In this document: one piece after another, positions 1 to 49,600 of the stretch | Layout of the letters: every line of letters begins with the position of its first letter | How positions within the stretch are numbered: the stretch's first letter is position 1 | Assembly (NCBI GenBank): GCA_043228905.1 | Contig: JBHGNT010000002.1 | Location: 13,578,001 to 13,642,000 of the forward strand | Length of the DNA: 64,000 nucleotides | Direction: 5' to 3' | Source of the DNA: Azolla caroliniana | Taxonomy: Eukaryota > Plantae > Polypodiophyta | The notes under the pieces: model-generated | What the model saw: only the letters and a program-made list of their open reading frames with translations | What the model was told of the DNA's origin: nothing | Databases searched by the model: none | Made by a program: the position numbers and the translations under genes

Positions 1-251
1 ATGGCATGGTGTGACATTAGACGAGGGCTCAAGTGCGATCAACTGAGATCCAAACCTGCTTGGCTCAGTCAACGTATCCTATGGAACCCATGTATCAAGG
101 ACGAATCTAATCAACTACTGGGATCACGAAGGGGTTGTCCTAGCAATACATTGCAAAAGGTCCAGGAAAAAGTATAGAATGTTGGAGACGGTGTCGTGAA
201 GAATGTGCTTCACGATATAAAAATGAGCTTAAATGTTGTATTTAATAATAT

Positions 252-315
252 TTGAGAGACTTGAACCCACATCCTTATATACGATGTACAATGTACATAC
301 CACTAGGCTAGGCTA
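252..315 (-). ncRNA. tRNA-like Pol III cassette 1 inside the LTR (copy at about 6929-6992)
   Basis: Minus strand reads A-box TAGCCTAGTGG, stem TTGTA/TATAA with a 7-nt loop, B-box GGTTCAAGTC. No acceptor stem. Confidence 0.6.
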
Positions 316-387
316 TTTATTTGTAAAAGTGCGTAATAAATGTGCTTCATGATATAAGAATGAAGCTATATATTGTATTAAGTAAAA

Positions 388-451
388 TTGAGGGACTTGA
401 ACCCTCAACCTTGTATATCAAGCACAAACCATACACCACTAAGCTAGGTTA
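388..451 (-). ncRNA. tRNA-like Pol III cassette 2 inside the LTR (copy at about 7065-7128)
   Basis: Minus strand reads A-box TAGCTTAGTGG, stem TTGTG/TACAA with a 7-nt loop, perfect T-arm GAGGG-TTCAAGT-CCCTC, then TTTT. Confidence 0.65.
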
Positions 452-504
452 TTTGTTTTAGGGTTATATCCATCATTATACTTATCCCAATACATGGGAG
501 CTCA

Positions 505-628
505 AATGAGCATGATGGCTATCATGCATCACATGCAATGCATGTGCGCCAAATGGCGATCATGCATCAGATGTAACTCATGCATTACATGCATGACATT
601 ACCATATGCATGGAAATACTTATAAAAA
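505..628 (+). promoter_or_regulatory. RY (CATGCA) motif cluster followed by a TATA box in the LTR
   Basis: At least five CATGCA plus overlapping TGCATG within about 110 bp, then TATAAAA at about 621-627. Confidence 0.5.
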
Positions 629-697
629 GAGAGGAAAGGAAAACAAAAGGGAATCAAGGAATCAAGAGAGAGTAAAAAAATAATATAATCAATTGAA

Positions 698-760
698 GAA
701 GACTAGCTCATTGGGTGGAGAACCTCTCGTTTCGAAGTTGAGGTCGAGGGTTCAAATCAA
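698..760 (+). ncRNA. tRNA-like Pol III cassette 3 inside the LTR (copy at about 7375-7437)
   Basis: A-box TAGCTCATTGG (704-714), loop-like TTTCGAA, AGGTC, B-box GGTTCAAATC (749-758), at tRNA-like spacing. Confidence 0.6.
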
Positions 761-959
761 GGGTCGGTATTGAAAAGATTCATCTTGCGATCAAGGATTG
801 TAAAGTTGGTAAAATATTATATTTTTAATATACATCATGTTTATATCATATACTCTTGTTCTTTGAATCATACTTTGTCTCAATCTTCTTTCTAGAATCA
901 TACTTTGTCTCAATCTTCTTTCTTGAATCATACATTGTCTCTTTCTTTTATCTATGCTC

Positions 960-1006
<47 letters not shown>

Positions 1007-1147
1007 ATTACTTGTAACTCTTCATCTTACTATCCTTAACCATTCTATCATCACCATACAAGCCTTATTAAACTTAAGTTTCTTCAACTCCCCTTAACCT
1101 TAGTCCCCGCGACTTCGCCGCACGAACCACAACTACCCCGACACATT

Positions 1148-1164
1148 TGGTGAACCCGACGTGA
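1148..1164 (+). other. Primer binding site complementary to tRNA-Trp 3' end
   Basis: TGGTGAACCCGACGTGA is the reverse complement of TCACGTCGGGTTCACCA, the plant cytosolic tRNA-Trp 3' end as I recall it. Confidence 0.85.
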
Positions 1165-1182
1165 AGGCGGCGACGAGGAGAA

Positions 1183-3297
1183 ATGGAGGAGCAAATGAGG
1201 CTTATGTGTACGATGATGGAACGAGTGATGCGGGAACAAGGGATGATGGCAAGCATCGACAAAGCCGTCGACAATATTCTCGCACGAGTAGGAATCTTCG
1301 AAGGTATAAATTTAACAAGATTTCTGAAGATTTATAATGAAGAAATGCTTAAACGCGGTGTCGACGAAGCAACAAAAATTAATAGCTTTAGTCGAGTCGT
1401 TGCGATTGGGCTACAAGAGAGGATCCAAGAGCTCCAAAGGGAGAATCAGACATGGACAACGTTCCAAAATGCATTACTCAATGCATACAACCTCAACGAT
1501 ATGTCAAGGATGACAAGGCGAGCTTTCATGGATTGGGTAGAGTCTAATAAACATTTAAGTGTTTTGGAAGTATTAAAAGAGTTTTCTGAAAGATTTGAGC
1601 AACTAAATGTTAGAGATAGAAATATAATAGTGCCAGATAAAGTAATATTGTTTCTACAAGCTACTAATATTAAAGACAGGAAGGACTTGGGAATGCTTTT
1701 AGAAGATCAGAATAGTCCAAGTGGACTTACCGAAGATTGGGAGGAGGTGAAAAGGGCGTGCGCCCATTTCTGCAAAAGAAAGTTATGGTTTATGGAGTTG
1801 CCCGACAAAAATGATGAAGAAACGGGGAACGAGTCGGGAGAAAAGAAAGTAGAAGAATCACTCTTACACGAATTAGTGAAAGGCATGAAAGACTTGTCGA
1901 TCAAAGTGACGAAGCTAGAATCGGGACAAAGCTCGACTTCATCAAGGCAGGGAGGTGGAATGGTCCGAAGGTGTATGTGGTGTGATAGTATCGACCACCA
2001 GAAGAAAGATTGTCAAGAGCATAGGGATGCTCTTAATCATAATAAAATCTACTATCAAGATGGCAAGATTCACTCAACTGAGACTCGACAACCACTTCAA
2101 CTCAACTTCGGGCGAGGAGGAATGAAAAGGCTAATGGAAGATGCCGAGAGAGAAACGACTCAAGCGATACAATCCGTGGCAACCTTAGGATTGCGCGTAG
2201 AAGACTCATATGGTGGATCTGGCTTTTGGCAATATGTGATGGATTATGCAAGAAAAGGGAAGGTTCGAGTGGATGAATTAAAAAGAGTGGGAGATGAAAT
2301 ACGAAACTTCACTGGATGGAATGATCCAGTAGACGCGCTATCAGCATTCGCCCAAGTGAATGCACAAGATGTGCTAGTGGAAGAGAAGCGGAAGAGAGCC
2401 GAGGAAGCTGATCCGACAAAGAGACATGAGACATGAGAACAAAAGAGAAGGGAGATGGAAAAGGGTGCTATTGAGCCGAAGGAAGCTGATAAAGTAAAAG
2501 GAAAGACAGGCCCATCTTTCAAGCTTGCCTCAGACATAGAAACAACGACGGATATAAAAAAGGTACTAGAAACAAGAATATTAAATAGTAAGGTAGAATT
2601 TACTTTAAGAGAAGTGTTGGGTATAGCAAAGAAAGAATTTCATGAAGTTATCATAGATATTATTAGAAGGAAGAGACGGGTGACGGAGGAAATTACGGGA
2701 GGGTGTGCAGCAACACTCCAAGATTTGTATGGTGGCACCATCAATGCTGCAAGTGTAAAAAACCAGAATGATGTTGGCGTCCATGAAGGGGATAGGAGTC
2801 ACTATACAAGGGACCATTGGGCTCGAGCAACAACGGAGGCACCTGCAAAAATTGGGGAGCAGCAAATTCCATGTATTGCTTTGATCGATCATGGATCAAA
2901 GATTAACATGATGTCATCGGAATTTTATGCTCGAGGACGATGGCCGATCGACAAGAATCATGGGTGGAAAATAAGAGCTGCCACAGAAACTACGAAGGAT
3001 CTATTCGGAGCATGTCCTAGTGTGAAGGTAACAATTGGTGATGTCTCGGTGAATCAAAATTTCTTTGTGCAGGATCGATCAACCTACCCCGTCATCCTTG
3101 GCCAGCCCTACATCACCGCAGTGAGGATGGAAACAAAGGTTATTGATGATGGTTCGGCTTTCGCGAGAATCAAGAGTCAAGATGGAAGAAAGACTGTCCA
3201 ATTCTTAACCGTGAGGCCCAACCATGAAAGAAACAAAGAATGCTTGAGGGAACATCCAATTCAAGAGATGGATGAAGAGTTTTCCCAGGATTTTTAG
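1183..3297 (+). pseudogene. gag-pro: Gag plus aspartic protease, one frame interrupted by TGA at 2434-2436
   Basis: ORFs 1183-2436 and 2455-3297 share a frame. Zinc knuckle CMWCDSIDHQKKDC. Protease motifs ALIDHGS and VILGQPY. Confidence 0.85.
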
Positions 3298-3350
3298 ATA
3301 GGGCTTTTACAGGTAGGGGCTGTGATAGCCCGAGCATAAAAGAAAACCCC
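3288..3350 (+). other. Putative -1 programmed ribosomal frameshift signal
   Basis: G GAT TTT directly before the TAG, a 6-nt spacer, and stem 3301-3312/3320-3331. The -1 frame is open from here into pol. Confidence 0.7.
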
Positions 3351-6300
3351 ATAAATAATAATGTAAATAAAGATATTCCTTGTACAATCTCATCTAATGG
3401 TGCTACTTTTATACTAAAAGTAAATAATAATAAAATACAAAATGCTTTCGAGTACTTTAAGTGTTCTGGATTAATAGATGATGATGAAGAAATTCAGGAT
3501 ATGTTTGAAGAATTAAGTTTTGAAGATACAATAACTCATTTGGAAGCAATGGAAGAAGACAACGAAATCCAAGTTCCTGTCCATTCAATCAAGATGTATG
3601 AGGTCATTGAAGAAGTTGCTCGAAAGGATCATGAAGCACATGTACTAACAAAATACAAGACAGTGGAGAAGAAGGTTCGTCCTATTGCTGCTCCACTTCC
3701 AGGGGATAGTGAAAAGGCAATCAAAGAAGCAGCCATAGAGCCAATGATCAGAGACCCACGAAAGGTAGGACATGTGTTTACTCCGGAAACAATACAAGGG
3801 ATGAAAATAGGAGGGGGTGACTTCCTATTACCCGCTGAAGAAAAGCAGTTCAGGGAGATGTTAAAAAGGCATGGAAAGGTATTCACATTTCAACCGGAAG
3901 AAATAGGGTGTGTGGATCCAGAAATTGTGGAGCCCATGGTTATATTCACTATCCCTCATATTCCATGGAACTTTAAGCCAATATCCATGCCTAGGGCTAG
4001 AATCCCTCAACTATTAGAACTTTTGAAAGAAAAGATAAGGATGGGTATCTTGGAACCATCGAACGCTCCTTACTCGAGTCGATGGTTCACTGTGTTAAAG
4101 AAAGATGGGCGACTCCGATTTATCCAAGATATGCAACCCGTGAATAAGGTAACAATCCGAAACTTGGGAGTAGGGCCAATTGTGGATGAGTTTGCTGAGA
4201 TGTTTGCAGGAAGAGCTATATATTCAATGGGAGACCTTTATTCCGGATATGATCAATTTCAACTTGCTATCAAAAGTCGAGATATAACTTCTATCAAGAC
4301 ACCTATAGGGTTAGTACGGATGTGCACCTTGCCGCAAGGAGCGACCAACTCAGTGGCGCATATGATGAATGGAATGAACAAGGTACTTCGTGATTTTATT
4401 CCTCATATTACAATGCCTTTTCTAGATGATGTTCCAATTAAGGGATGCAAGGAGGAAGAGAAGAACGAGGAATTGGACGAAAGTGGTTGCCGTCAATTCG
4501 TTGCTGATCATATCAAGGATTGTGAGAAGGTGCTATCAAGGATGGAAGAAGTGCATTTGACCTTATCAGGGGCGAAGTCAATATTTGGGGCAAAAGAGAT
4601 ATTAATAGTTGGTCATATGTGTGGCCCGTATGGGAGAAAGCCATCCCCAACCAAGGTCAATGCAATTCAAAATATGCAAGAGGAATGTACATCCATCTCA
4701 GAAGTACGAAGGTTTCTGGGGGTATGTGTTTTTTACTGTAAATGGATTCCGCATTATGCCCATTTATCTGAACCTTTATATAGACTCCCAAGAAAAGGAG
4801 AGACATTTGAATGGAGTGAAGAGCATTCAGAGGCAATGAAGAAATTGAAGTACTACTTGGCACAAGCTCCACCATTAAAGCAACCAGACTACACCCGGCC
4901 CATATATCTCACAGTAGACTCTAGTCCCATTGGAATTGGATGGGTGATAAGCCAACAAGATAGGGAAGAAAGGTATCCAGTCCGATTCGGGGCAAAGGTT
5001 CTTAGTGGTCGACAAAGAAAATATGCACAGGTGAAAAGAGAGCTATGGGGGATAGTAACAGCTGTAAAGACAGACAGAGATTACTTAATTGGTGCTGAAG
5101 TAATAATAGAAACAGATTGTTTGCCTATTCTGGGTATCATAGCTAATTGTGATATTCCAGATCAAGCCATGTTAAGATGGTGTATCTATATTAGATCAAT
5201 CAACCCTGAAGCTCGACATATCTCTGGGAATAGAAATGCAGTAGCAGATATGTTATCAAGAGCAAGGTATGAGGAAGAGGAGATTCCAGACTCGGACGAT
5301 GAGGACAAAGAACAAACAGTCCTTACCACAGATTGTTTGCCTATTCTGGGTATCATAGCTAATTGTGATATTCCAGATCAAGCCATGTTAAGATGGTGTA
5401 TCTATATTAGATCAATCAACCCTGAAGCTCGACATATCTCTGGGAATAGAAATGCAGTAGCAGATATGTTATCAAGAGCAAGGTATGAGGAAGAGGAGAT
5501 TCCAGACTCGGACGATGAGGACAAAGAACAAACAGTCCTTACCACAAGCATTACTCGGGAAGGAAGAATGCAGTTTCTAGAAGAGGAGTATGAAGATGAA
5601 TTCAAGGAAATAGGGAAATACCTACAAACCCCTAACAAGTACAAAGGTCGATCTGGAAAAGAGTTCGCACAGTTTCGCAAGAAAGCCCATAAGTTCTTCC
5701 TGTATGAAGGATATCTATGGCGACATCCGAAAACCAAGACTGGAAACCTGCAAAGAGTAATAGGTTCTGAAGGGCAAAGAAAGGAGATAATCAAAGAGCT
5801 GCATGACAAAGAATGGGCTAGTCATCGAGGAGTGTGGGCCACTTTCAGTAAGATTAAAGAACGATTTTGGTGGCCTCGATACTATGAGCAAATAAAAAAG
5901 TATGTGGAAACTTGTCCCACTTGTCAATATTATTCAAATGTAAAATTTTGTGATGAATTACACCCAACATACTCACCGGGGGTGCATTACAAGTGGATGA
6001 TAGATTTGGTAACAATGCCACTTGGAGTAGGACAAAAGAGATACTTGGTTCTTGCTAGAGAAGATCTAACAAATCAAGTGGAAGGTCGTTCATTGAGAAA
6101 AAAAGGGACATTAGGAGTATGTCAATTCATCTTGGAGGACATTGTTTGTAGATATGGATGTATCGGGAAGATAGTGGCAGATAGGGGAGAACTAAATTCT
6201 GCGGAAGCTCAAGATTTTTTCGACAAAATAGGAATTCGGCTTTCTTTGACAACGACGTACAATCCAGAAGCTAATGGAAAGGTAGAAAGGGGACATGGGC

Positions 6301-6876
6301 CAATAGTCAAAGCTTTGGCAAAGGCATGTAGAATTAATCACAGGACAGAAGCCAATAATGCCAATTGAAGAAAAGATAACTACATGGGCTGTGTTGCCTT
6401 GGGAATCAGAAATGAGTAGGGAAGATTTACTTGCGGTTCGAATACGACAACTTCAATCAAGGATAGAAGACATAGAAAAAGCAGCTACTAGATTGAAAGA
6501 GGCAAGAATCAAGAATAAGGACAGATTTGACAAGATGAAAAGAATACGACCAAGAAAGGTGCAAGAGGGAGATTGGGTATTAGTATATGATAATAGCCTA
6601 GATAATCAATACAGTACTATTCGGAAGTTTGCAAAAAGATGGTTTGGACCTTATGAAGTTAGGAAAATAATAGATAAAGCGACATATTTCCTCAATGAAT
6701 TAGATGGGACAGAAATTCGTATCCCAATTGCAGGAAAAAGGATTAAAATATTTAAAAGGAGGGAGTCATTAGAGCCTGAATTTTATGAAGAAGTAGAAGA
6801 ACTAAAAGAATCGGAAGATGTGTTGGATGAACTCTGCACAACCAATGTGCAAGTTCAGAGGGGGTGGGTGTCGTGA
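3291..6876 (+). pseudogene. pol: Pol (RT-RNase H-integrase) with an internal duplication and an integrase frameshift/deletion
   Basis: RT motifs GYDQF, LPQG, FLDD. RNase H TVDSS and ADMLSR. Integrase HHCC region, DRGE, NGKVER. The GPY motif lies in the shifted frame 6358-6876. Confidence 0.9.
5112..5543 (+). repeat. Exact in-frame 216-bp tandem duplication in RNase H
   Basis: 5112-5327 equals 5328-5543, with ACA microhomology at the junction. The 72-aa repeat is visible in the ORF. Confidence 0.95.
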
Positions 6877-7637
6877 AGAATGTGCTTCACGATATAAAAA
6901 TGAGCTTAAATGTTGTATTTAATAATATTTGAGAGACTTGAACCCACATCCTTATATACGATGTACAATGTACATACCACTAGGCTAGGCTATTTATTTG
7001 TAAAAGTGTGTAATAAATGTGCTTCATGATATAAGAATGAAGCTATATATTGTATTAAGTAAAATTGAGGGACTTGAACCCTCAACCTTGTATATCAAGC
7101 ACAAACCATACACCACTAAGCTAGGTTATTTGTTTTAGGGTTATATCCATCATTATACTTATCCCAATACATGGGAGCTCAAATGAGCATGATGGCTATC
7201 ATGCATCACATGCAATGCATGTGCGCCAAATGGCGATCATGCATCAGATGTAACTCATGCATTACATGCATGACATTACCATATGCATGGAAATACTTAT
7301 AAAAAGAGAGGAAAGGAAAACAAAAGGGAATCAAGGAATCAAGAGAGAGTAAAAAAATAATACAATCAATTGAAGAAGACTAGCTCATTGGGTGGAGAAC
7401 CTCTCGTTTCGAAGTTGAGGTCGAGGGTTCAAATCAAGGGTCGGTATTGAAAAGATTCATCTTGCGATCAAGGATTGTAAAGTTGGTAAAATATTATATT
7501 TTTAATATACATCATGTTTATATCATATACTCTTGTTCTTTGAATCATACTTTGTCTCAATCTTCTTTCTAGAATCATACTTTGTCTCAATCTTCTTTCT
7601 TGAATCATACATTGTCTCTTTCTTTTATCTATGCTCG

Positions 7638-7684
<47 letters not shown>

Positions 7685-7820
7685 TTACTTGTAACTCTTC
7701 ATCTTACTATCCTTAACCATTCTATCATCACCATACAAGCCTTATTAAACTTAAGTTTCTTCAACTCCCCTTAACCTTAGTCCCCGCGACTTCGCCGCAT
7801 GAACCACAACTACCCCGACA
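6869..7820 (+). repeat. 3' LTR of element 1, preceded by PPT AGAGGGGGTGGG (6857-6868)
   Basis: Direct repeat of 192-1143. Confidence 0.95.
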
Positions 7821-9099
7821 ACGGTTTATGTCACTACCACTACAAGATCAAGCCAACATATTCCATGGAATCAGGGGTGGATGGACTATGAGATCGGAAA
7901 ACATTAACGCTCGACTGATTAGGGAAGCTGCTACTCAAAGGACAACAATAGAGAAATGGATAAGCTACGAGGAGGAGGGATCTTTGATCCCGAGAAGTAG
8001 GGGAACACCAGACAGGATTGAAGGCTCTGAATTGCGAGACACTGAGACACCAACACAGAATAACACAATTCGAGTACTCGCGTATACTGGTCATAAATGG
8101 ATTGTAGATCCTGATCCAATCAAAGTACAATCCGATTGGCACATATGTACTCATGAAACACATGGCTACGTAATGTCAGTTGGGACCCTTTGCAATGGAC
8201 ATGGCGTGATCCTTACACGGGGCAAGGAAGCAAACCCATCCCTTTCTTCCAATTCACAACTAGATTGGGTCGCCACATTCTAGCTGCTCAAACCGCCTAA
8301 GAGCCGGCTGCTACAAAGGTTTGGCACACATTTTAAGTTCCTCACACAATTATCACCAAGTTTTGGCAGAAAATCTGGAAACAACAACACGCGAAGCGAA
8401 TTACCAGGTTCTAATGGCTATTAATACATAAGTCACTACCGGTGGGAGCATGGCAATGTGGGAACCTTAGCTCTCCTAATTGTGTAGAGTGGCCAAATGC
8501 AGTAGAATCAATACGACACGCTCTGTGGGACTGCCCAACGTCCCATCGAATATGGCGGGGGGTTGGCCGCTTGTTGCAATTATGCCAGGTGCAAGGCTCA
8601 ATCAAGTGGGGATATATATGTTGGCTATCATGGCAGATACGACCATCAAGAGGAGGGGATGACTTTGGTGATAAAAGCACAAGAGGTTTTTTTCTCCACC
8701 AGCGGCAATGTCCACTCAACTCCTCTTAATGACAAATCTCAAGTTGTGTTGGAATTGGTCAGCCCAATAACTCTTTGGATTCTATGGAAACAACGGTGTA
8801 GACGGGTCTTCTCCAACCAAACCGTGCATCCAACAAGGTTACTACAAGAGATATGGAGTGAAATTGTAGCCACTCTAAAGAGCCAATATGATGGCCTCAA
8901 GGGTGGCCCCGATGGAGTCGAAAGACAACGAATAGCCTTCATCCAACAATGGTCATCCTCTCCCTTTCTTGAGTCAGTGGACATCCACATAAGATGGAAC
9001 TATCGCGTCCCTACAAGGATTTGTACATAATAGTCTCATTTGTAAAATTTTATAACTAATGGAAGGAGTTTTTTTTTGGAAAAAAAAATAAAAAAAATT

Positions 9100-19455: not shown

Positions 19456-22400
19456 TGTTAAGTACACATAACGTTGGTGAGGGTTGGTCACTAATATTTA
19501 CATTAGTGAAGGGTATGTTCACTAATGTTAAAAAAGGGGCTAATGTGATTGGATAGAAGGAATGACAGGTGCATGCACTATCATGATTTGGGAAACCAAT
19601 GAATGGAGACCCTTTTAGAAAGGCACATCTATTCAAGGGGCCTAGGAAAAGGTATAAATATGAGGATTAGCTACCTCATAAGGACACGTGGGAAGGTTGT
19701 TGTCTTAGACACCGGTGGTGCGGGCTTGGCTTTCATCTCGACGATCGTGTTTATCTCTTCCAAGGTATTAGTCATCCTAATATCCGGCGGTATTGGACGT
19801 CGGTGGTAGGTTGGCTATGTCTAGATCATAGCTCGAGAGTGTTCGGGTGGAACAGTTTCTTCTATCCAATCTATTTTCCTTCTTTTACTTTACTTTGGTC
19901 TATTCATTAGTAATAGACTCTTAACAGTGGTATTAGAGCATTTACTAACATGTTTTTTGTTGTTTTGATGTTTTTTGCATGTGAGCGATGGGGATCTATA
20001 ACAAGGCTCGTCATGCTCTTCACAGGATCAAAACAACATTCTTAACCCGGTATTCTTCTTTCTCGATCTCTCTCTCCTTTTCTTTGATGTGTTCTTCAAG
20101 TTGGTCGAATCAAATTTGTATTACGTTTTATTTTCTTTCTTTCTACTTTCTACCATGCTACGATTTTAATTATTATTGGGCATTGGGCTGCGCCTGTTTG
20201 CACTAATCGCACACACTCAACTCATGGCCCTTTTCAATAATGCGATGTATCTCCCACTCTCCCCTCTCTTGAGCCATCTCTTACAATAATAATTATTCTT
20301 GTGCATTGGATTGAACGTGCTTGCCTAATCGCACACGCTCACCTCATGGCCCTTTTGCATATGATGTTGGGTATGCCACTCTTCCCTTTATTGAGCCATC
20401 ACTTGGCCAATTCTATCGGATGTTGTGGCCTTGACGAGGTGTATGTCGCCTACCTATGCCACTCTACTCTATATTGAGCCATCACTTGACCGATTCTATG
20501 GGATGTGGTGGTCTTGAGGAGGTGCATGTCAACTATGCTAGGGTTTCTTACCTTATGGCATGCTTAATGTTCATACACCTAATTGATTATTATTCTACCT
20601 ATTTTTTAATTACACAAGTTATCTTCTCCCTTTCTTTAGATTTTCTTATGATTTTCATCTACCCACCCACACTTCACTATTTTTTTAACCTTAATTTTTA
20701 TGTTCATCTACATTATTTATGTGTGTTTCCCTATTGGGTAACGATTTTGTGTAGTCCATTTTTTTCGTATTAAGTGGGCATCATGCCGTTTTTTAAATAT
20801 TTTTCCAAAGTGTCCTCTAGGTTTAACTCATGTAATTGAGCCTTAGAATTCGATTAAAAACACATGAGTACTACATCTTTGCGCACAACACCACCACCAT
20901 TTGTATCAACTTGTGGCTTATGTCACAATTGTGCACATTACAATCTCCATATTGGGATGGATATGTGCATACCTCGCACCATCCATTTATTGGTGGCATT
21001 TTTTTTTAGTAGACAACACATGGTTTTTTAACCTTATTTTCGTCACTTCTTGACTCTTATAGATAGTGACTTCTTTTTTTTTTCATAACATTTGCTTGCT
21101 ACTCGCAAGACTAGAATATTACTTGCGAGTGCACTTGTTTTTTCATGTAATACACTTTCTTGACCATATCAATACATGTTTGGTTGGCATTCTAATATAA
21201 GGCTAACTAGGAAACTACATTGATGTTAGAACCATGGTTGAGCCTCGGGGAGCCGCCATGATTATTCAAGATAGAGATCCGAGAAAGACATCTTAGCTAT
21301 GTTTTCCCCCATGGTTTTTAAAACACCATAGTGTTACCATAGTTATCGGATCTCGAATCACATCTCATATATCTAGAGGGGTAAAGACGTGAGATGCTTT
21401 CTTGGTAAAGTTCTTACAATCAAAATTTCAAGCATTCATTTTGCTTGTGTATTTTCTGAACCTCCTTATTTATATTGCATACCCACAACTTGCATCATTG
21501 AACAAGTTTTGAACGTTGTTGGAGCTATCTCTTCGACCGAGACCTCTCAACTCCAATCTGCATCTCACACACAAGCTGAGATCACTATTGAGCAATTTCT
21601 CACTACTACCTTGAATCAATTGGCCGAAATGAGGCAAGCCAATATGGCATTGGAAAAGAAATTCCAAGAATTTATTATTGAGTCCAAGAAAGAAGGTGAA
21701 CCTTCTTTCGTAGTAATGTCATTCAAGGGAGATAAGAAAGAAAGAACCGAGGAGGCCATTAGCACTTGGCTTGGTTGTTGGGAGTCTCACTTTGAGCTCC
21801 ACCCCAAGCCCAATGCTGTAAAAATTGGTTATGTCAGTCATGAGTTAGGTGGCCGAGCTACTACTTGGTGGCACAACCTAAGGACTGCAAAGAACTTACC
21901 CACAACTTGGGAAGGTTTCGTTGATGTTTTTAAGAAACAGTTTTTGCCGCCAGCTTCTCAAACTGAACAAGCGCCAGCTTCTCAAACTGAACCTCTTCGA
22001 TGCATATTGTAAGAAGCGGGGCCACACAAAGGATACCTGTCGTCGTCTTGAGAGGAAGTCAATGAACACCCCTCCTCAAGACAAATCTACGAGTCACACA
22101 TGTGAGTCTTTTGATGTTGTTGAAGTTCATACCAACCACTTAAGTTCATGTGAATGCACTTTTCCTTCACATTTACTTGGACCTAATGATTTACTCCGAG
22201 CAATCGGGTATATCAATGGAACACAAGCACATTTCTTGTTTGATTCCGGTAGTTCTCACAATTTTCTTAATGATCACTTTGTGCAGCAAATGGAACTCCA
22301 CATAAATGCAAGTGATCATATCTATCAAGTTCACATGGCAAATGGAAGCGTTCAATACATCAGTGGTGTTGTTTATCAACTGCCAATTCAAATATATACC

Positions 22401-41414: not shown

Positions 41415-41543
41415 TGTCGCGTTGTTATGCGCGTGCATGGAGAAAGGCGGGACCACGGGGGTCTTGGACTAGGGAGTGACGGAGCATAGGAAATCGTGCT
41501 TCACTGTTTCTAGGGCATCCCAAAACACACCGGAAGCGACCGA

Positions 41544-41592
<49 letters not shown>

Positions 41593-44500
41593 ACTTAACA
41601 CCGACTCACGCACACACACGCACACACACACACACACACAAGCCGACCCGACTCACGCCCTTATGTACAGGAAACGCAGGAAAGGGGAAGCACCCGACAT
41701 CAATAGAGACGCGAATATACACAGACAGACGCAACGTATATATATATATATATATATAAAGAAGAATACATTCCCGGCGTCTGGCCGGACCAAGATAGCT
41801 TACAACAGTCGTCTGCTGTCAAGCCGCCGTCGGGGAACTCTTGGGCTCGTCACGCCGAGCGGGGTCTTGCACAGGGAGATGAGCTGCAGCAAACCCTAAG
41901 CGAACACGAAGGGGGGAGAAGAAGAAGAAACTAACTCTAAACCTAACGGTATACCCTCTAATGCAAAATGGGCAACCCTTTCACAAAGGGTGTTCCCTTC
42001 CTTTTATAGAACAAGGATAGGGATGCGTTACAATGTGGGATAAATCTCGACTTACATGGGATCGTTTGTCCCGCCTTGACTACTCTTCGGCGCCATAAAG
42101 GCGCCCTCGATATTCACATTCACAAAGGGTGTTCCCTTCATTTTATAGAACAAGGATAGGGATGCGTTACAATGTGGGATAAATCCCGACTTACATGGGA
42201 TCGTCTGTCCCGCCTTGACTACTCTTCGGCGCCATAAAGGCGCCCTCGATATTCACACTAAATGTACATGGGTGCGTACACACGCTGCACCCCGCCGATG
42301 TAGCCAATGTTTCCCGGTTTCCGCCTCTGGCCGAAATTCTTCACGACATCCGCCCCCACCTAACCGCACATCCACCGGTATGTGCCAAGTCCGGTTGAAG
42401 GGTGAGAGATTTCGGCCGGTGAGAAACCGGTCTTCCGTGATCCGCATCCCGGCTCGCTGCCGGTTTGACCCGTCGGCTTCGAGTCTTCCTTCGCGCTCGC
42501 CTCCTCGTAGGCTCGTTCGACCCGTCGATGGGTCCTCTGCCGCGATCTTCGTAGTACGCGTACTTTCACTGGCCCTTGCTCGGCCGTATGAACGCCTCGC
42601 TCCCATCGTATGCCCGATGTCCTCCGCTTGAGGCATGCCCGTAGTGGCCCGCTTGGCCTTCGTTGATCATTCGCGTCGTCCTGATTGCCGTCCCATGTCG
42701 TTTCACGTTGCCCTCGTCCTCTCGCTGCCACCTTCCTTCTCCATGGTCTTACATCGCCGTGTCGGCTCGAACCGCCATGGTCTCCGGAACGGTGTGGAGG
42801 ATCCCTTTCCGGCCTTCTCCGCGCTACCTCCGAACCGCGCAACCTATCTCCGCGCTCGCCTTTCCACTCCGGCACCTCCGTGTGCCACATACCCTCATCC
42901 GTTGTTTGGCACTGCCTGTGTTGCACTCCTTGTTGGCCCCCTTTCCGGCCAGATCATGCATCGCCGCTCACCCGCATACCGGTGTCCTTTGCATCCGAGG
43001 AACACCCTGTAGTAGCCCGCTTGGCCCTTCTCGTCTTCGTGTTGCCGCGATAGGTCCTGAGTCGTCCGCTTGCCGTCGCCCCCTCGCCCCCACCAGCTTG
43101 TCATCCTGACTTGCCGTGTTAGTCTTCGCTACTTTGACGGAGCTACCGAGATCTACGAAGCGAGTGTGGAGGATCCTCCTCCGGCCTCTCTTGCCATCCC
43201 CTGACTCCGACCCTGTGCAGTCCACTAGGCACTTGTCACCTTGTTCCCGGCACCTCCCTTGTGCCGTCTTCCGCTTCCTTCGTTCGGCCCCGCCCGCGCC
43301 GAACACCGTCCCGTAGTCACGCTTCGATCCGGCCCGCGATGGCCACTTGCGAGACTCTTGTTCTGTCCAAGGTGTGCATTTCCGGCCCGATACACCTCCC
43401 CGTGTTTGCCCCTACCGGCTCCTTCCGAAACCTCGTGTCGTCGGGTCCTGTTCCCTGCCGCCACCGTCCTTCTCCCTCGGTCTTACGTTGCCACATTGGC
43501 CAAACAGCCGGGGTCTCCGGATCGATGTGAGGGTCCCATAGGACCGTACTCCGTTTCTATGCTTGCCGTAATTCGGGTGCCTTTTGTTTGAGTCCCTCCT
43601 GGACTCTCCTCGTGTCTTCCGCTTAGTCGGGTCCCGTTTCCCGCCGCCACCATCCTTCTCTCTCGGTCTCATGTTGCCACGTTGGCCGAACTGCCGGAGT
43701 CTCCAGTTAAGTGTGGGGACTTCCTTACGCCCATTGCCTTCGTCACCTCGCCGCCACCATCAGTATCTTGGTCTTACGTCGACCGCGTTGTCGACTGCCG
43801 AAGTCTCTAGAACCGGTGTGAAGGATCCTCCGTAGACCGCCGCCCGTAGCCCCTTTGTCTTCGTCACCTCGCCGCCACCGTCAGTATCTTGGTCTTATGT
43901 CGACCGCGTTGCCGACTGCCGAAGTCTCTAGAACCGGTGTGAAGGATCCTCTGTAGACCACCAATTTATCTTCCCGACCCTGTCCCGGGTCTTCCTTTTC
44001 CACATGCCGAGAGGGCGTTTTGTTCCGCACCCTCTCCCGTGGTACCGACGTACCGTGTCCTCAGCCTCTTTGTAGGCCAGCTCTCTTCCTCCCTCCCGGA
44101 ATGGTCATCCGGGAGTCCGCTCCGCCCGGTTCTCGTCCGGGTCCGTTCGTCCTTCTCCGGATTGCCGAGTCCCGTTCTCCCGTCGCCACCGATCTCTCTT
44201 ATAGGACTCACGCCGGCCCTCGGGCCTGCAGCCGGATCGGTGTAAGGAATCCCATAGGACCGGCTTTCATTCTCTTTCCAAATCTCGACCTTCGCCCGGT
44301 CGGTCTTTCTCCCCATGTAAAAGAGGGCGGCTCGTCCCGCACCCCCTTCCGTATCGGCACTTTCACGCCGAATCCGGCCCCGATTGAACGATCCACGACC
44401 GGATCACGCTCCACCCGTATCAGAATGCCGATCTCCTCGTGCCGCATCCGTCCTCGGCCTCCTCACATGTCATTTCCCATCCATCTTCGCTGGCATTGTG

Positions 44501-45967
44501 CCAGGACTCCTCGGTACCGCCATCCATCTCCTCGGTCTTACATGGGCATACGGGCCCGAATGCCGAGTTCTTCGGAATCGGGTCCGTGGGCTTTCGTCCG
44601 TTCCTTCCCCGTATCGTCTCGCTGGTGATTCTTGGCCTTTCGCCGCCGCCTTCCTCCGCTTGGGACTCACGTGGGCACTCGGGCCCGACTGCCATCGTCC
44701 CGGGAGCAAGTGTAGGAAGACACAAGGAATCGCCCGTCCGTTTTATGCCCTTGTTCGTAGCCACCGACTCTTCGTGGTCAGCGGTCGTCTTCTTACCAAT
44801 CGCGCAAGCCCCGTCTGGGCTTGCTTCTCCAATGACCGGGATCTCGGGTTGACACGCCCGAAACCGCTGGTCCCAACATTCCGGTTCCGCGATCTGTATC
44901 TCGGCCTCGTCCTTGGCCGTTCTTTCTCCGCAAGTCGAGAGGGCGTTTCGTTCCACACCCTCTCCCGTGGTACCGTGGTACCAATCTTCCGCTGTCGCGT
45001 GGGGCAAGTCCGTCTTCTCAGTCTCGGCTTGCGGCCTCCGTCTTTCCTCCTCCTCGAGCATCGCCTCGAGAGTTGTGTACGCCTCTGCAATCCTGGCCCC
45101 AACGCTGACCCTTGCCGACTCTCTCTGCCGTTCGGCCTCTTCCCGCTGTGATGGCACGTCGTCGCGTACCTTCCTCTTAGCCTTCTCGGCTCGCTCGTTG
45201 TCTAGCCGTTGGCACACCCTTCCGACCTTCGACCAGTCCTCCGGAAACCCATTCGCTCCGTCATCGTCTTCGAGCTCAATCCCGATGGCTTCCCGTTCCG
45301 CTCGGTCGATCGACCTGACGAACAAAAGGACTTTGTCCGCGCCCACCAAACCTTGTTCCCGCTCCGGTAGCCGAGCAAGCCGTCGCTCAAACTCTCGGAA
45401 TGCCTTGGTCGCACCCCGGTGGGTCTTTGCCGATGCTACCCACTGGTCAAAGTCGTGCCGTCCCCGCCTCTTCCGCCGTCCTCCGTATGCCTTCAGGAGC
45501 GCCTCTTCAAAGGCCTCCCACGAACTATGAGCCTCACGGAGCTCCTTTATTTCCGCATGCATCCGGAAAACCATGACCCAACAGAAGAACTCCAGCCTCA
45601 ACGCCTCGTCTACGCCACGCTCCTCCATTTCCGCGTTGTAGGCTTCCAAGTAAGATGGGACTTTGTCCCCGTTGAAACGGCCGACTCTTTCGACCACTCG
45701 CTCAACCGGTTGTTGCGCTGCTTCTCGCCTCATCACCACTCGTGCCGACTCCAACACCACTTCGGCCACCATCTCCGCAAGGTCGTCGTCTTCCGACTCC
45801 ATCCTCCCTTGCCGCCTTTCACGTCGGGTTCACCAAAGATGTCGCGTTGTTACGCGCGTGGTGGAGAAAGGCGGGACCACGGGGGTCTTGGACTAGGGAG
45901 TGACGGAGCGTAGGAAGTCGTACTTCACTGTTTCTAGGGCATCCCAAAACACACTGGAAGCGACCGA

Positions 45968-46028
<61 letters not shown>

Positions 46029-46641
46029 TTAACACCGACTCACGCACACACACGCACACACACACACACACACAAGCCGACCCGACTCACACCCTTATGT
46101 ACAGGAAACACAGGAAAGGGGAAGCACCCGACATCAACAGAGACGCGAATATACACAGACAGACACAACGTATATATATATATATATATAAAGAAGAATA
46201 CATTCTCGGCGTCTGGCCGGACCAAGATAGCTTACAACAGTCGTCTGCTGTCAAGTTGCCGTCGGGGATCTCTCGGGCTCGTCGCGTCGAGCGGGGTCTT
46301 GCACAGGGAGATGAGCTGCAGCAAACCCTATGCGAACACGAAGGGGGGAGAAGAAGAAGAAACTAACTCTAAACCTAACGGTATACCCTCTAATGCAAAA
46401 TGGGCAACCCTTTCACAAAGGGTGGTCCCTTCCTTTTATAGAACAAGGATAGGGATGCGTTACAATGTGGGATAAATCTCGACTTACATGGGATCGTCTG
46501 TCCCGACTTGACTACTCTTCGGTGCCATAAAGGCGCCCTCGATATTGACACTAAATGTACATGGGTGCGTACACACGCTGCACCCCGCTGATGTAGCCAA
46601 TGTTTCCCGGTTTCCGGCTCTGGCCGAAATTCTTCACGACA
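41415..46641 (-). mobile_element. Non-autonomous gag-only gypsy element related to element 1 (element 8)
   Basis: LTRs 45840-46641 and 41415-42348, tRNA-Trp PBS (45819-45835), 4-bp TSD CCGT/TCGT. The LTR starts TGTCGTGAAGAAT as in element 1. No pol motifs. Confidence 0.9.
44420..45802 (-). CDS. gag: Gag-like protein (460 aa) with a charged, unrecognised C-terminal half
   Basis: RVGRFNG...YNAEM and DKVLLF...LED...EDW..V.R.C align by eye with element 1 Gag (RVGIFEG...YNEEM, DKVILF...LED...EDW..V.R.C). Confidence 0.8.
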   Translation of the reverse strand: MESEDDDLAEMVAEVVLESARVVMRREAAQQPVERVVERVGRFNGDKVPSYLEAYNAEMEERGVDEALRLEFFCWVMVFRMHAEIKELREAHSSWEAFEEALLKAYGGRRKRRGRHDFDQWVASAKTHRGATKAFREFERRLARLPEREQGLVGADKVLLFVRSIDRAEREAIGIELEDDDGANGFPEDWSKVGRVCQRLDNERAEKAKRKVRDDVPSQREEAERQRESARVSVGARIAEAYTTLEAMLEEEERRRPQAETEKTDLPHATAEDWYHGTTGEGVERNALSTCGERTAKDEAEIQIAEPECWDQRFRACQPEIPVIGEASPDGACAIGKKTTADHEESVATNKGIKRTGDSLCLPTLAPGTMAVGPECPRESQAEEGGGERPRITSETIRGRNGRKPTDPIPKNSAFGPVCPCKTEEMDGGTEESWHNASEDGWEMTCEEAEDGCGTRRSAF

Positions 46642-49600
46642 TCGTTTCGACCTTGCCTGATGAAAAGTGAAGAGTCTGATTTCGACGGAGCAAACCCTGC
46701 CTAATGTAGTTTTTGCGTGATCTTTGCGTTCTAGGCACGTGGGGCTTGCTTGAGTCTGTAGAGGGACTTCTTCAATTGGCACATTGCCGATGTATTTACT
46801 CCGAACTGAAATCTGGGGGGCTGAACCCCTTCGCCGCTGCCACCGCAAGCAGGACACATACGGTCTTCAACTTCGTGACTAGCATGAATGTCACATCGTA
46901 ATCGATGCCCTATTGCTGCATGTAGCCTTTGGCCACTAATCGGGCCTTGTACCTGTTGACGGAGCCGTCCATGTTGTATTTAACCTTGTATACCCATTGA
47001 TAACCGATTGGCTTCATTCCTTTTTTGTATGTCCACCAAGTCCCACGTCTCATTCTCCATGAGCGCGTGCATCTCTTCTTCCATGGCCTTCTGCCAATTC
47101 GGATCCTTAACCGCTTCAGCATAGCTCTCTGGCTCACGCTGGACTGCCACCTTTGCCTTGTATGCATAATGATGTGCCATATATTTGTTATACCCGTATC
47201 TCTTCACGGGGTTATTCTAGCGGGTGGATCGAAGCAATTCCTGATTCACCGATTTCTTGGCTTTCTTGGCTTTCTTGGTTGACTTAGACTTCTCTTCCGA
47301 AGGTCCATCTCTACTTTGTCCGGAGTCAGATTCGCTCTGATTTGACTGAGCTCTGTCGATGTCTTATTCCGACATCTTCTTCTCCCCCTTCTACTTGTGC
47401 GTGAACCATCTCCTCGGTTCCTCAGGCGGGGACAACACGACCGAGTCTTCACTACTCGTCGGCTCATCATCTAGTTGATCACTCCAGTTAAACTAGTCTG
47501 GATTCGGTCCACTAATTCGGAGAGAAGTCAGACTATCCTGTTGTTCGGATTCTGTTTCGCTTCCCTTTGTTCCGGATTCCACCGGATCATCAACAACAAT
47601 CGGCTCGAGTTCGGGTGGAGAGAAGTACCAGGATGCTGATTCATCAAAAACGACATCTCGGCTAACTCGGACGGTTTTCGATCGGAGGTTATAAAACTTA
47701 TAACGCTTCTATTCATCCGAGTGGCCGATAAGAATCCACTTTTCGGCTTTCACCTCTAACTTCCTCCGTTTTTCCTTCGGTACATGCACATATGCAATGT
47801 TACCGAACACCCGAACATGTGCCAAGTTCGGCTTTTGCTCGGAATACAGTTCGTGCGGCGACATCTCTATCCCTGAGGCAGATATCTGACTTTGGATATA
47901 GACGGTTGTCCGAATTGCTTCGGCCCAATAGAACTTGGGCATGCTTTTCTCCTCAAGCATCACCCTTGCCGCTTCTACCAACGTCCTATTCCGACATGCG
48001 GCCATGCCTTTCTGCTCCGGCGTGTATCTGTAGGAGAATTCCTATCAGATTCCCTTCATCTGCAGATAACTCGTGAACTGGCCGGAAAAGTACTCTTTTC
48101 TGCCATCCGATCTCAAACACTTGATCTTCCTTATGGTCTCACGTTCAACATGGTTTTTCAAATCCCCGAAGCATGAGAAGACTTTGCTTTTCTTCTGAAT
48201 TAGATAAATCCATGTGTGCCGGGTGAAATCGTCGATGAAGGAGACGAAATACCGACTCCCACCAATGCTCACGTTTTGTGCTAGTCCCCACACATCTGAA
48301 TGGATGAGATCAAGCCAATTCCATCTCCGATTCTTTTCATTGGGGAATGGAAGCCTATGTTGCTCCGATTCTTCATGGCTCGTCATGTGGTTTGATGCTC
48401 CGGAGTCAACGTACCACACTTCCCCCAATCCAGAAGTGGTCTTCATCATTGAGTTCGCCTTGTGCTTCATCACAAAGGCTGGCCCTTTTCTGGTCTTACT
48501 GGTTCTAGATCCTTCCGATCCTTTTGCATAGTGCGACCTTTGCCGGTTTCCTCGACCGGCTTTGCCGGATCCGGATTTGTTCGAATTGGCGCGCTTCTTC
48601 CAGCACTCGCTCTCTGTGTGGCCCTTTCGGCCACAATACCAACATTCCGTTGCGGCCTTGTCTTGCTGGTTTCCGGTGCCGCCTTGACTCCCCCTACTTG
48701 TGCAGGGTCTGGAACTGTTGTTGGCACCATCCCTGTGCCTCCAATTCTGCTCTTGTCGGCCGCTTCCATCGTGTGCTGATCCGCCTCGTCCACCACGACC
48801 ACGGGGCCGATCCATCTCCGTGTACAACATCCTATTGTCGGTGTGTGTGCTCGTTGACACATCGACGTGGTTCTCCGCTACTAGGAGCATCGACTGTAAG
48901 TCAAAAAACGAGGGTGTATTCTCCCTTGTACAGACCGCCGTCCGGATTGCTCTGAACTTTGACGCTAGGTCCCCGAGACAAACTTGCACCATCTCATCTT
49001 CCTCGACGGTTACGTTCATAGAGGCAAGTGAGTCGTAGATGTCTTTGATTCGGGCTGTATAGTCGGCCACCGACATGTCCTTCTGTCAGACATTGCTCAA
49101 CTCCTATAAGAATTGCAGCTTCCGGGTCGCGATGCCCAAGCTTCCTTCCACATCTTGGTGTCCTGGTATGGCTCAGCAGAAGATCGCCGACATTGGACGC
49201 AAAGCAATACATAACTCTACTTGCCGCTTGTTCCCAACTCGGGAAGTCCCTGTGTGCAACATCAAGTGTCATATATCGTTAGCTTCGTCGAAATAACTCC
49301 AGTAACCGTGCCCGAGCAGGTACTGGTGCATCTTGTATGAACAGGATGCATAGTTGGATCTGTCGAGCTTCTCCGTTGGAATCGCGCTAGCCATTCCTCG
49401 GTCCATATTTTTCTTCTGTCTGTTCTTTGTCGGGTGTTAGGGTTTGTCTTCAAAAAACACTTGGCCACTGCAGAGGTTCTCAACCCTCATGTTCTGATAC
49501 CATGTAAAAGTGAAAATGCGGAAGCTAAGACAGAACCGGCTCTGCCAGACAACAATAGAATACAGACATGTTTAATGGAACCTTAAGAATACACGAGAGA

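What the first reader, a model, noticed from the sequence alone, without database searches (positions are those of the whole stretch)
252..760. Gypsy LTR carries three tRNA-like Pol III cassettes, two antisense and one sense
Seen: each LTR of element 1 holds two minus-strand units inside a ~138-bp tandem duplication, plus one plus-strand unit downstream of the TATA box. All have A- and B-boxes at tRNA spacing. The two antisense units have diverged yet both keep a 5-bp anticodon-like stem with a 7-nt loop (TTGTA/TATAA and TTGTG/TACAA) and a T-arm. None has an acceptor stem. Known: Cassandra TRIMs carry 5S Pol III promoters in their LTRs, and tDNA/TFIIIC sites act as chromatin insulators in yeast and mammals. 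Inference: this family may use captured tRNA/SINE heads as internal Pol III promoters, antisense RNA sources or anti-silencing barriers around its Pol II promoter. I know of no description of this in a coding plant gypsy element.
Basis: partly seen in the sequence, partly recalled or inferred. Interest (0 to 1): 0.8.

Follow-up and report, generated by a model that had tools for sequence, protein, structure and literature searches.

The report
tRNA-gene relics bracket retrotransposon promoter
A plant jumping gene carries three worn tRNA-gene fragments in each end repeat, and a backwards-facing one sits the same short distance upstream of the element's predicted promoter in several distantly related families, where it likely serves as a docking site for the tRNA-gene transcription machinery that would help keep that promoter open; no activity has been shown.

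Summary
Both LTRs of a Phygy-like gypsy element (Trp PBS, 4-bp NCGN target duplication) carry two antisense and one sense tRNA-type A/B-box pairs; 9 of 20,000 shuffles give even one, the rest of the window none. They are not tRNA genes, have no SINE target duplication or tail, and cannot make the genomic RNA. New here: a related antisense unit sits 135-185 nt upstream of the TATA box in 5 of 15 Phygy-type LTR types examined, collinear with the window's promoter block at about 38% Gag identity. Boxes vary less than the spacer (3/22 vs 17/32 sites) but not significantly less than flanks; 9 of 15 types lack any unit, and some copies have eroded boxes. The claimed stem conservation failed its tests. 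Best reading (0.45): an inherited TFIIIC/TFIIIB docking module back-to-back with the Pol II promoter; main rival (0.33): an old passenger fragment. Nearest known: Helenus TRIMs (sense, non-coding) and foamy-virus U3 Pol III cassettes. This scan noted LTR-borne tRNA-like units before in fungal-like and animal genomes, not in this family.

The parts
192..1143 (+). 5' LTR (952 bp, TGTCG...CGACA)
   Evidence: 5 substitutions against the 3' LTR, two of them at a microsatellite boundary
188..191 (+). left target-site duplication ACGG (NCGN)
7821..7824 (+). right target-site duplication ACGG
202..458 (.). tandem duplication in U3, period 136, 78% alike; each unit carries one antisense cassette
257..310 (-). 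antisense tRNA-like unit 1: A-box 310-300, 32-nt spacer, B-box 267-257; first T5 run 33 nt after the B-box
393..446 (-). antisense tRNA-like unit 2: A-box 446-436, 32-nt spacer, B-box 403-393, perfect T-stem, T4 run 5 nt after the B-box; Rfam tRNA 21.2 bits
490..620 (+). CATG-rich promoter-proximal module with GCGCCAAA at 546-553 (E2F-like label is recalled); shared with the L054/L041 family
621..628 (+). predicted Pol II TATA box
   Evidence: collinear TATA in L054
704..759 (+). sense tRNA-like unit 3: A-box 704-714, 34-nt spacer, B-box 749-759; T-stem broken; first T5 at 822-826
1148..1165 (+). primer-binding site, tRNA-Trp type
   Evidence: resemblance to the RSV (Trp) PBS model; the Trp assignment is also recalled
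1183..3294 (+). gag-protease region (DUF4100), broken by an in-frame stop at 2434-2436; 93% identical to an open 704-aa relative, P0003
3276..6876 (+). pol: RT, RNase H, integrase; 216-bp internal duplication at 5112-5546 and a frame break near 6307-6368; no chromodomain hit
6857..6868 (+). polypurine tract
6869..7820 (+). 3' LTR with the same three units (6934-6987 minus, 7070-7123 minus, 7381-7436 plus)

Best explanation
The three units are tRNA-gene-derived A/B-box pairs inside the LTR of a Phygy-like gypsy retrotransposon, and the antisense unit is an old, inherited part of the element's promoter block that likely works as a DNA docking site for TFIIIC/TFIIIB rather than through its RNA. 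Shown: the boxes, their tRNA spacing, the back-to-back layout with the TATA box, the 135-185 nt distance in five LTR types, and lower variation in the boxes than in the spacer. Inferred: TFIIIC would bind the boxes and place TFIIIB on the TATA-facing side, about one nucleosome from the Pol II TATA box. That would keep a nucleosome-poor patch or barrier at the edge of the CATG-rich module, as tDNAs and ETC sites do in yeast. Any Pol III transcript would be short (about 70-130 nt to the first T run) and would be a by-product. The window's family has doubled the module, and some copies appear to carry other numbers of units. The sense unit after the TATA box would close the bracket on the other side, but its evidence is weaker.
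For: Chance is excluded. An antisense unit occupies the same place in WIN, L054 (plus partial L041), L003, L078 and L014, with its A-box 175, 181 (163), 185, 135 and 166 nt from the TATA box. L014 was found by a profile that did not contain it (E=5e-7). Unanchored BLAST aligns the window LTR with L054 over 316 nt at 63% (E=1e-23) through unit, CATG module and TATA, although their Gag is 38% identical. Between L003, L014 and L054 the cassette region is the only U3 segment shared apart from the LTR start. Window units versus L041/L003: boxes 16-18 of 22 identical, spacer 13-14 of 32, flanks 3-11 of 25 (partly circular, since L041 and L003 were found by their boxes). Among cassette copies in three DNA runs plus the unit 1/unit 2 pair, 3 of 22 box sites and 17 of 32 spacer sites vary (p=0.003); none of the three box changes touches the GTTCRA core or the A-box GG. 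The boxes are the most GC-rich part (50% vs 34% and 26%), so methyl-C decay should hit them hardest (inference). RNA structure is not kept, which points to a DNA-level role. T runs at 822 and further on rule out Pol III making the genomic RNA.
Against: Boxes versus the rest of the tandem repeat: 2/22 vs 13/67 differences, p=0.22, so part of the signal may be a fast spacer rather than slow boxes. Many variants at unit 1 are unit-2 letters, so the sites are not independent. L078 has lost box letters faster than spacer letters against L003 (14/22 vs 26/32 identical). L041 vs L003 shows no box preference (16/22 vs 24/32). L054 has a change in the B-box core. 9 of 15 LTR types have no unit, including the largest cluster (11 loci) and a second Phygy-type element in this window. 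Most comparison loci come from one series of assemblies. The passages I read on plant tDNAs gave no plant example of tDNA barrier activity.
Confidence: 0.45

Rival explanations
1. Passenger relic. A SINE head or tRNA pseudogene landed in U3 of an ancestral element (and another after the TATA box), was copied with the LTR and spread by U3 module exchange, and has no present function.
For: Absent from 9 of 15 LTR types. Eroded boxes in L078, L054 and the second L057 unit. Box versus flank test not significant. U3 regions are mosaics: L054 shares other modules with unit-less L052, L070 and L073. L003, L014, L041, L054 and L078 share a short tract after the B-box that could be a SINE body remnant. 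Kojima 2024 notes that 'not a few' Repbase LTRs hold tRNA-like pieces.
Against: Boxes persist while the spacer has fallen to about 42% identity between families. Position and orientation are fixed in five types. No target duplication or A-tail: the longest shared flank words are 5-7 nt, AT-rich or part of the tandem repeat.
Confidence: 0.33
2. Small-RNA cassette. Pol III would make 70-130 nt RNAs, the antisense ones complementary to U3 of the genomic RNA, which would tune silencing or replication, as foamy viruses make Pol III RNAs from U3.
For: A/B boxes are followed by T4/T5 runs. Unit 2 forms an 11-bp T-arm hairpin. Four stem differences within the family are wobble-compatible on the cassette strand. 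Precedent in simian foamy virus (PMC3993851 passages).
Against: No fold better than shuffles (z -1.08, +0.57, -1.16). No covariation across six units (173 and 111 of 500 shuffles as high). One stem-breaking change is common in one run (site 424). The spacer, which would be the RNA's body, is the most variable part.
Confidence: 0.1
3. Self-damping. The Pol III complex would repress the adjacent Pol II promoter (tRNA-gene-mediated silencing, recalled from yeast), limiting transposition except under stress.
For: Same geometry and box data as the best explanation.
Against: The family is very abundant in four organisms (1,186-2,366 contigs laid per run) and has doubled the unit; neither decides the sign of the effect.
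Confidence: 0.07
4. Landing pad. The units would attract Ty3-like insertions to the element's own LTRs.
For: Earlier notes of this scan describe such pile-ups in fungal-like genomes (unchecked).
Against: No insertion in either LTR here. The loose ends shown near the predicted Pol III starts do not begin like LTR ends (only the best-supported rows were shown). Insertion follows the NCGN motif in the related loci.
Confidence: 0.05

Closest known systems
Helenus TRIMs / TRIMp3 (Kojima 2024, PMC10886601; main text parts 1-4 of 6, searched passages and supplement passages read)
   Same: tRNA-derived sequence inside both LTRs; boxes A and B kept while tRNA structure is not; proposed origin by SINE insertion into an LTR; one plant case (Selaginella).
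   Different: Helenus elements are 311-1263 bp and non-coding. The LTR entries I saw in the supplement, including Helenus-1_SMo, show the unit in sense, proposed to transcribe the element. Here the element is 7.6 kb with gag-pol and a Pol II TATA box, the shared unit is antisense and upstream of the TATA box, and there are three units. The paper argues that autonomous partners must use Pol II and describes no such coding family.
Cassandra TRIMs (as described in PMC10886601)
   Same: Pol III internal promoter inside the LTRs of a plant LTR element.
   Different: 5S-derived (type 1), non-coding, and shown to start the element's own transcript.
Foamy-virus U3 Pol III miRNA cassettes (PMC3993851, passages read); BLV Pol III miRNA cluster (PMC12498455, search listing only)
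   Same: A coding LTR element with several A/B-box Pol III units, in U3 for foamy viruses.
   Different: Those units make structured hairpin RNAs; here no fold stands out, the units are tRNA-shaped, and two face backwards.
tDNA and ETC insulators/barriers (PMC3395662, abstract and section headings; PMC11346459, passages)
   Same: TFIIIC-bound boxes acting through chromatin rather than through RNA: the proposed mode of action.
   Different: Host loci in yeast and animals, not carried by a transposon; binding is untested here.
Phygy clade of non-chromovirus Ty3/gypsy (Neumann et al. 2019, PMC6317226; passages and supplement rows read)
   Same: 4-bp NCGN target duplication, tRNA-Trp PBS, no extra domain, length next to the published range.
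   Different: The passages read mention no tRNA-like units in LTRs; the clade was defined from Physcomitrella only.

Membership tests
Phygy (non-chromovirus Ty3/gypsy) | 4-bp target duplication of form NCGN | tested here: met
   ACGG on both sides; NCGN left flanks in related loci; definition
Phygy (non-chromovirus Ty3/gypsy) | PBS for tRNA-Trp (81% of members) | tested here: met
   PBS at 1148 matches the core of the RSV Trp-PBS model; isotype partly recalled
Phygy (non-chromovirus Ty3/gypsy) | gypsy domain order, no chromodomain or archaeal RNase H | tested here: met
   RT, RNase H, integrase, SH3-like; no chromodomain among Pfam hits
Phygy (non-chromovirus Ty3/gypsy) | length 7656-9968 bp | tested here: inconclusive
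   7629 bp including a 216-bp duplication: just under the published range
Phygy (non-chromovirus Ty3/gypsy) | placement in the Phygy clade on an RT-RH-INT tree with reference elements | not testable with these tools
   no reference Phygy proteins held; the Gag tree has no named references
tRNA gene | cloverleaf with acceptor stem; RF00005 score of 29 bits or more | tested here: not met
   ARAGORN 0 genes; best 21.2 bits; acceptor pairing 3-4 of 7
Type-2 Pol III promoter | A-box and B-box at tRNA spacing, followed by a T run | tested here: met
Type-2 Pol III promoter | TFIIIC binding and Pol III transcription | not testable with these tools
   no chromatin or raw RNA data available
Helenus (TRIMp3) | tRNA-derived sequence with boxes A and B in the LTR | tested here: met
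Helenus (TRIMp3) | short non-coding TRIM (screen limited to <1000 bp; reported 311-1263 bp) | tested here: not met
   7.6-kb element with gag-pol
Helenus (TRIMp3) | Pol III unit able to transcribe the element | tested here: not met
   two units face backwards; the sense unit meets T5 at 822, and three more T5+ runs lie inside the coding region
Recent SINE insertion | flanking target duplication and A-rich or simple-repeat tail | tested here: not met
   longest shared flank words 5-7 nt; no A-tail in the 70 nt after each B-box
Recent SINE insertion | free-standing copies elsewhere in the genome | tested here: inconclusive
   none in the 64-kb window; no genome held; 1-3% of contigs laid on the LTR and 2-8% of those laid on 236-470 run on into unlike sequence

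The most novel reading that the evidence does not exclude
A lineage of coding plant gypsy elements has kept captured tRNA-gene promoters, over deep divergence, as a portable anti-silencing device. A TFIIIC/TFIIIB site placed back-to-back one nucleosome upstream of the Pol II TATA box (and, in this family, a second one downstream) insulates the LTR promoter from heterochromatin. This would be the first transposon-borne tDNA insulator and direct evidence for tDNA barriers in plants.
Probability: 0.3. Interest if true: 0.8.

Novelty: new variant of a known kind. Interest (0 to 1): 0.5.

Why it matters
tRNA-derived boxes in LTRs are known from tiny non-coding elements, where they are thought to be the promoter. 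Here they cannot be, yet an antisense unit has stayed at a fixed distance from the Pol II TATA box across families whose Gag proteins are about 38% identical. If it binds TFIIIC, it would show a retrotransposon borrowing the host's tRNA-gene chromatin state to resist silencing. It would also give a high-copy, easily mutated test of whether tDNA barriers work in plants, with unit-bearing and unit-less families in one genome as controls. If it is a passenger, it mainly warns that such LTRs seed many tRNA-like false hits.

Tried and rejected
No whole genome is held for this window, so no genome-wide copy set or SINE search was possible; the contigs behind L084, L091, L103, L088 and L102 could not be extended. 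Protein scans of viral contigs and genome contigs found no relative; the viral PBS scan gave 1 locus with no LTR-like context. No RNA holder was listed, and the one possible RNA run laid (X21) gave 0 contigs; neither bears on expression. Low cover of 631-741 in runs X12 and X16 was not used as evidence. Selection on RNA stems: rejected. Origin by read-through of the Trp primer: rejected, because the units lie in U3, lack the acceptor end and share only 7 letters with the PBS. Role as a self-made primer: rejected; the longest match to the internal region is 8-10 nt. Isotype: not assigned; local alignment to the four tRNA-type sequences held in loci was not decisive, and a resemblance to tRNA-Pro or tRNA-Arg is recalled only. 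The Gag tree (35 rows, loci with under 100 aa dropped, among them L078) needs at least 2 changes of the 'unit' label, cannot tell one gain with losses from module exchange, and holds P0003 and P0005 labelled 'unit' by kinship only. The bacterial promoter scan is irrelevant to this eukaryote. Sense-unit conservation: 0 of 22 box vs 5 of 34 spacer sites among the 40 rows shown of 243 (p=0.07), too truncated to count.

Full report
1. The element. The finding lies in the 5' LTR of a 7,629-bp LTR retrotransposon at 192-7820. The LTRs (192-1143 and 6869-7820) are 952 bp, end in TG...CA and differ at 5 sites, so the copy is young. It is flanked by a 4-bp duplication ACGG, has a Trp-type PBS at 1148 and a purine tract at 6857-6868, and encodes gag (DUF4100), RT, RNase H and integrase with no chromodomain hit. 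This copy is broken (stop at 2434-2436, a 216-bp duplication, a frame break in integrase), but an open 704-aa Gag-protease relative is 93% identical, so the family is a coding one. Neumann et al. 2019 give Phygy as 4-bp NCGN duplication, Trp PBS in 81% and 7.7-10 kb (supplement row). The element fits, so I call it Phygy-like; tree placement against references could not be run. The host is likely a non-seed land plant. Phygy was defined in a moss, other notes of this scan read the genome as fern-like, and I did not determine it. The family is abundant in four organisms: 1,186-2,366 contigs per run were laid on the LTR at 80% likeness.

2. The observation. A scan with recalled A- and B-box consensus motifs finds pairs at 310->257 and 446->393 (minus) and 704->759 (plus), and again in the 3' LTR. 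Nine of 20,000 shuffles of the LTR give one such pair, none gives two, and the 56 kb beyond the element give none. The antisense pair arose from one 136-bp tandem duplication, so there are two independent units. They are not tRNA genes: ARAGORN finds none, Rfam gives 21.2 bits at best, acceptor pairing is 3-4 of 7, and the sense unit has lost its T-stem. I found no target duplication or A-tail. Each unit is followed by a T4 or T5 run 5-62 nt after its B-box, so any Pol III product would be short and could not be the genomic RNA.

3. Relatives. Twenty-five had an LTR start that could be fixed by a purine tract or an NCGN flank. With the window LTR they form 13 clusters. An internal LTR in L014 and a second Phygy-type element of this window (about 41422-46643, minus) make 15 LTR types. 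A profile of ten units searched over all 121 loci and the window, with a relaxed motif scan, finds an antisense unit in 5 types (window, L054 with partial L041, L003, L078, L014), sense units in 2 (window; L057 with partial L044, two copies), and nothing in 9 (one of these is a 124-nt deleted LTR). A weak sense hit in L079 (E=0.01) is left uncounted. L014 was not in the profile (E=5e-7). In all five types the antisense A-box lies 135-185 nt upstream of the TATA-like box, and each of these LTRs is CATG-rich (5-12 CATG words). Unanchored BLAST aligns window and L054 LTRs over 316 nt at 63% identity through unit, module and TATA, although Gag is 38% identical. Among L003, L014 and L054 the cassette region is the only U3 stretch shared apart from the LTR start. 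The unit is therefore an old, inherited or exchanged promoter module and not a recent insertion in this family. The Gag tree puts unit-bearing families on long, separate branches and needs at least two changes of the label.

4. Is it under selection? For: laying contigs of three DNA runs on 236-470 showed 32 variable sites (all 33 rows shown), 2 of 44 in boxes, 14 of 64 in spacers and 16 of 82 between units. Because many unit-1 variants are unit-2 letters, I collapsed both units and their differences into one frame: 3 of 22 box sites and 17 of 32 spacer sites vary (p=0.003). The three box changes spare the core letters, although the boxes are the most GC-rich part. Between families, boxes stay 73-82% identical while the spacer falls to 41-44% and the flanks to 12-44% (partly circular). 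Against: between the two window units, boxes differ at 2 of 22 sites and the rest of the repeat at 13 of 67 (p=0.22), while the spacer is faster than the rest (p=0.047). L078 has lost more box than spacer letters against L003, L041 and L003 show no box preference, and L054 has a changed B-box core. Most LTR types do without the unit.

5. Mechanism. Kept boxes, a kept distance and lost structure point to a DNA-level role. Established knowledge: type-2 promoters recruit TFIIIC, then TFIIIB and Pol III (PMC12308677 passage); tRNA genes lie in nucleosome-poor regions and ETC sites bind TFIIIC alone (PMC11346459 passages); yeast ETC sites act as chromatin boundaries (PMC3395662 abstract and headings). 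Inference: an antisense unit placed back-to-back with the Pol II promoter would put TFIIIB on the side facing the CATG module, about one nucleosome from the TATA box, and would help keep the promoter open. I give this 0.45. An old passenger fragment carried with the promoter block gets 0.33, a functional small RNA 0.10, damping of the Pol II promoter 0.07 and a landing pad 0.05. No binding, transcription or methylation was observed.

6. What is known. Kojima 2024 (parts 1-4 of 6, passages, supplement passages) describes Helenus, short non-coding LTR elements with tRNA-derived boxes. The paper remarks that many Repbase LTRs hold tRNA-like pieces but analyses only the short ones. The present element fails Helenus membership on size, coding capacity and orientation. 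Foamy viruses carry Pol III cassettes in U3 (PMC3993851 passages), but these make hairpin RNAs. Passages on P. patens retrotransposons (PMC7466625) contain no mention of tRNA or SINE, and a 2026 sugar-beet survey (PMC13570524 passages) cites only Cassandra and Helenus/Ajax for such motifs. Full-text searches listed no paper on tRNA-like boxes in coding plant gypsy LTRs; the library lacks most subscription papers, and Repbase entries were not searchable. Earlier notes of this scan report LTR-borne tRNA-like units in fungal-like and animal genomes, none for this sequence.

7. Verdict. A real feature and a new variant of a known kind. Interest 0.5; 0.8 if the barrier role (probability about 0.3) is shown.

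Noticed in passing
window 41422-46643 (minus): Second Phygy-type element (Trp PBS, NCGN-type flank) whose LTRs lack tRNA-like units; its 3' LTR has a 139-bp tandem duplication that doubles the TATA-like segment.
   Followed up: partly
window 490-620; L054, L041: CATG-rich module with GCGCCAAA (E2F-like, label recalled), 83% identical over 78 nt between families with 38% Gag identity; the deepest-covered part of U3.
   Followed up: partly
window 192-215; L057 LTR start: The LTR opens with a short hairpin (the first 10 bases are repeated inverted a few bases later), shared with L057; its 3' arm is repeated in the tandem unit.
   Followed up: no
window 150-191 and 7821-7850: The element sits in another repeat: 11 contigs of run X1 join the left flank directly to sequence like the right flank. 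The downstream frames gave no Pfam hit.
   Followed up: partly
window 199-460: Joints and loose ends suggest that the number of tandem cassette units differs among copies (skips and go-backs of about one unit; extra unit-like sequence before 339).
   Followed up: partly
L058:1150-1224; L036:2244-2315 and 2614-2685: A tRNA-Arg(CCG) gene lies about 200 nt from a Phygy LTR start, and two initiator-Met-like tRNA copies lie upstream of another; too few to claim targeting.
   Followed up: no
L010, L028, L033, L067, L076, L090, L108: A different set of Trp-PBS matches with another junction; L033 and L076 carry tRNA-Phe and two tRNA-Lys genes nearby.
   Followed up: no
L027: Phygy-type LTR of only about 124 nt (most of U3 and R missing) between a purine tract and a PBS.
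   Followed up: no
window 20159-20530: Tandem repeats of period 122 and 83 inside another LTR element; a loose box-like look on the minus strand was not picked up by the motif or profile scans.
   Followed up: partly
window 261-267, 397-403 and 1151-1157: The plus-strand B-box complement shares 7 letters with the PBS core, because the primer tRNA's 3' end resembles a T-loop motif; probably coincidence.
   Followed up: partly
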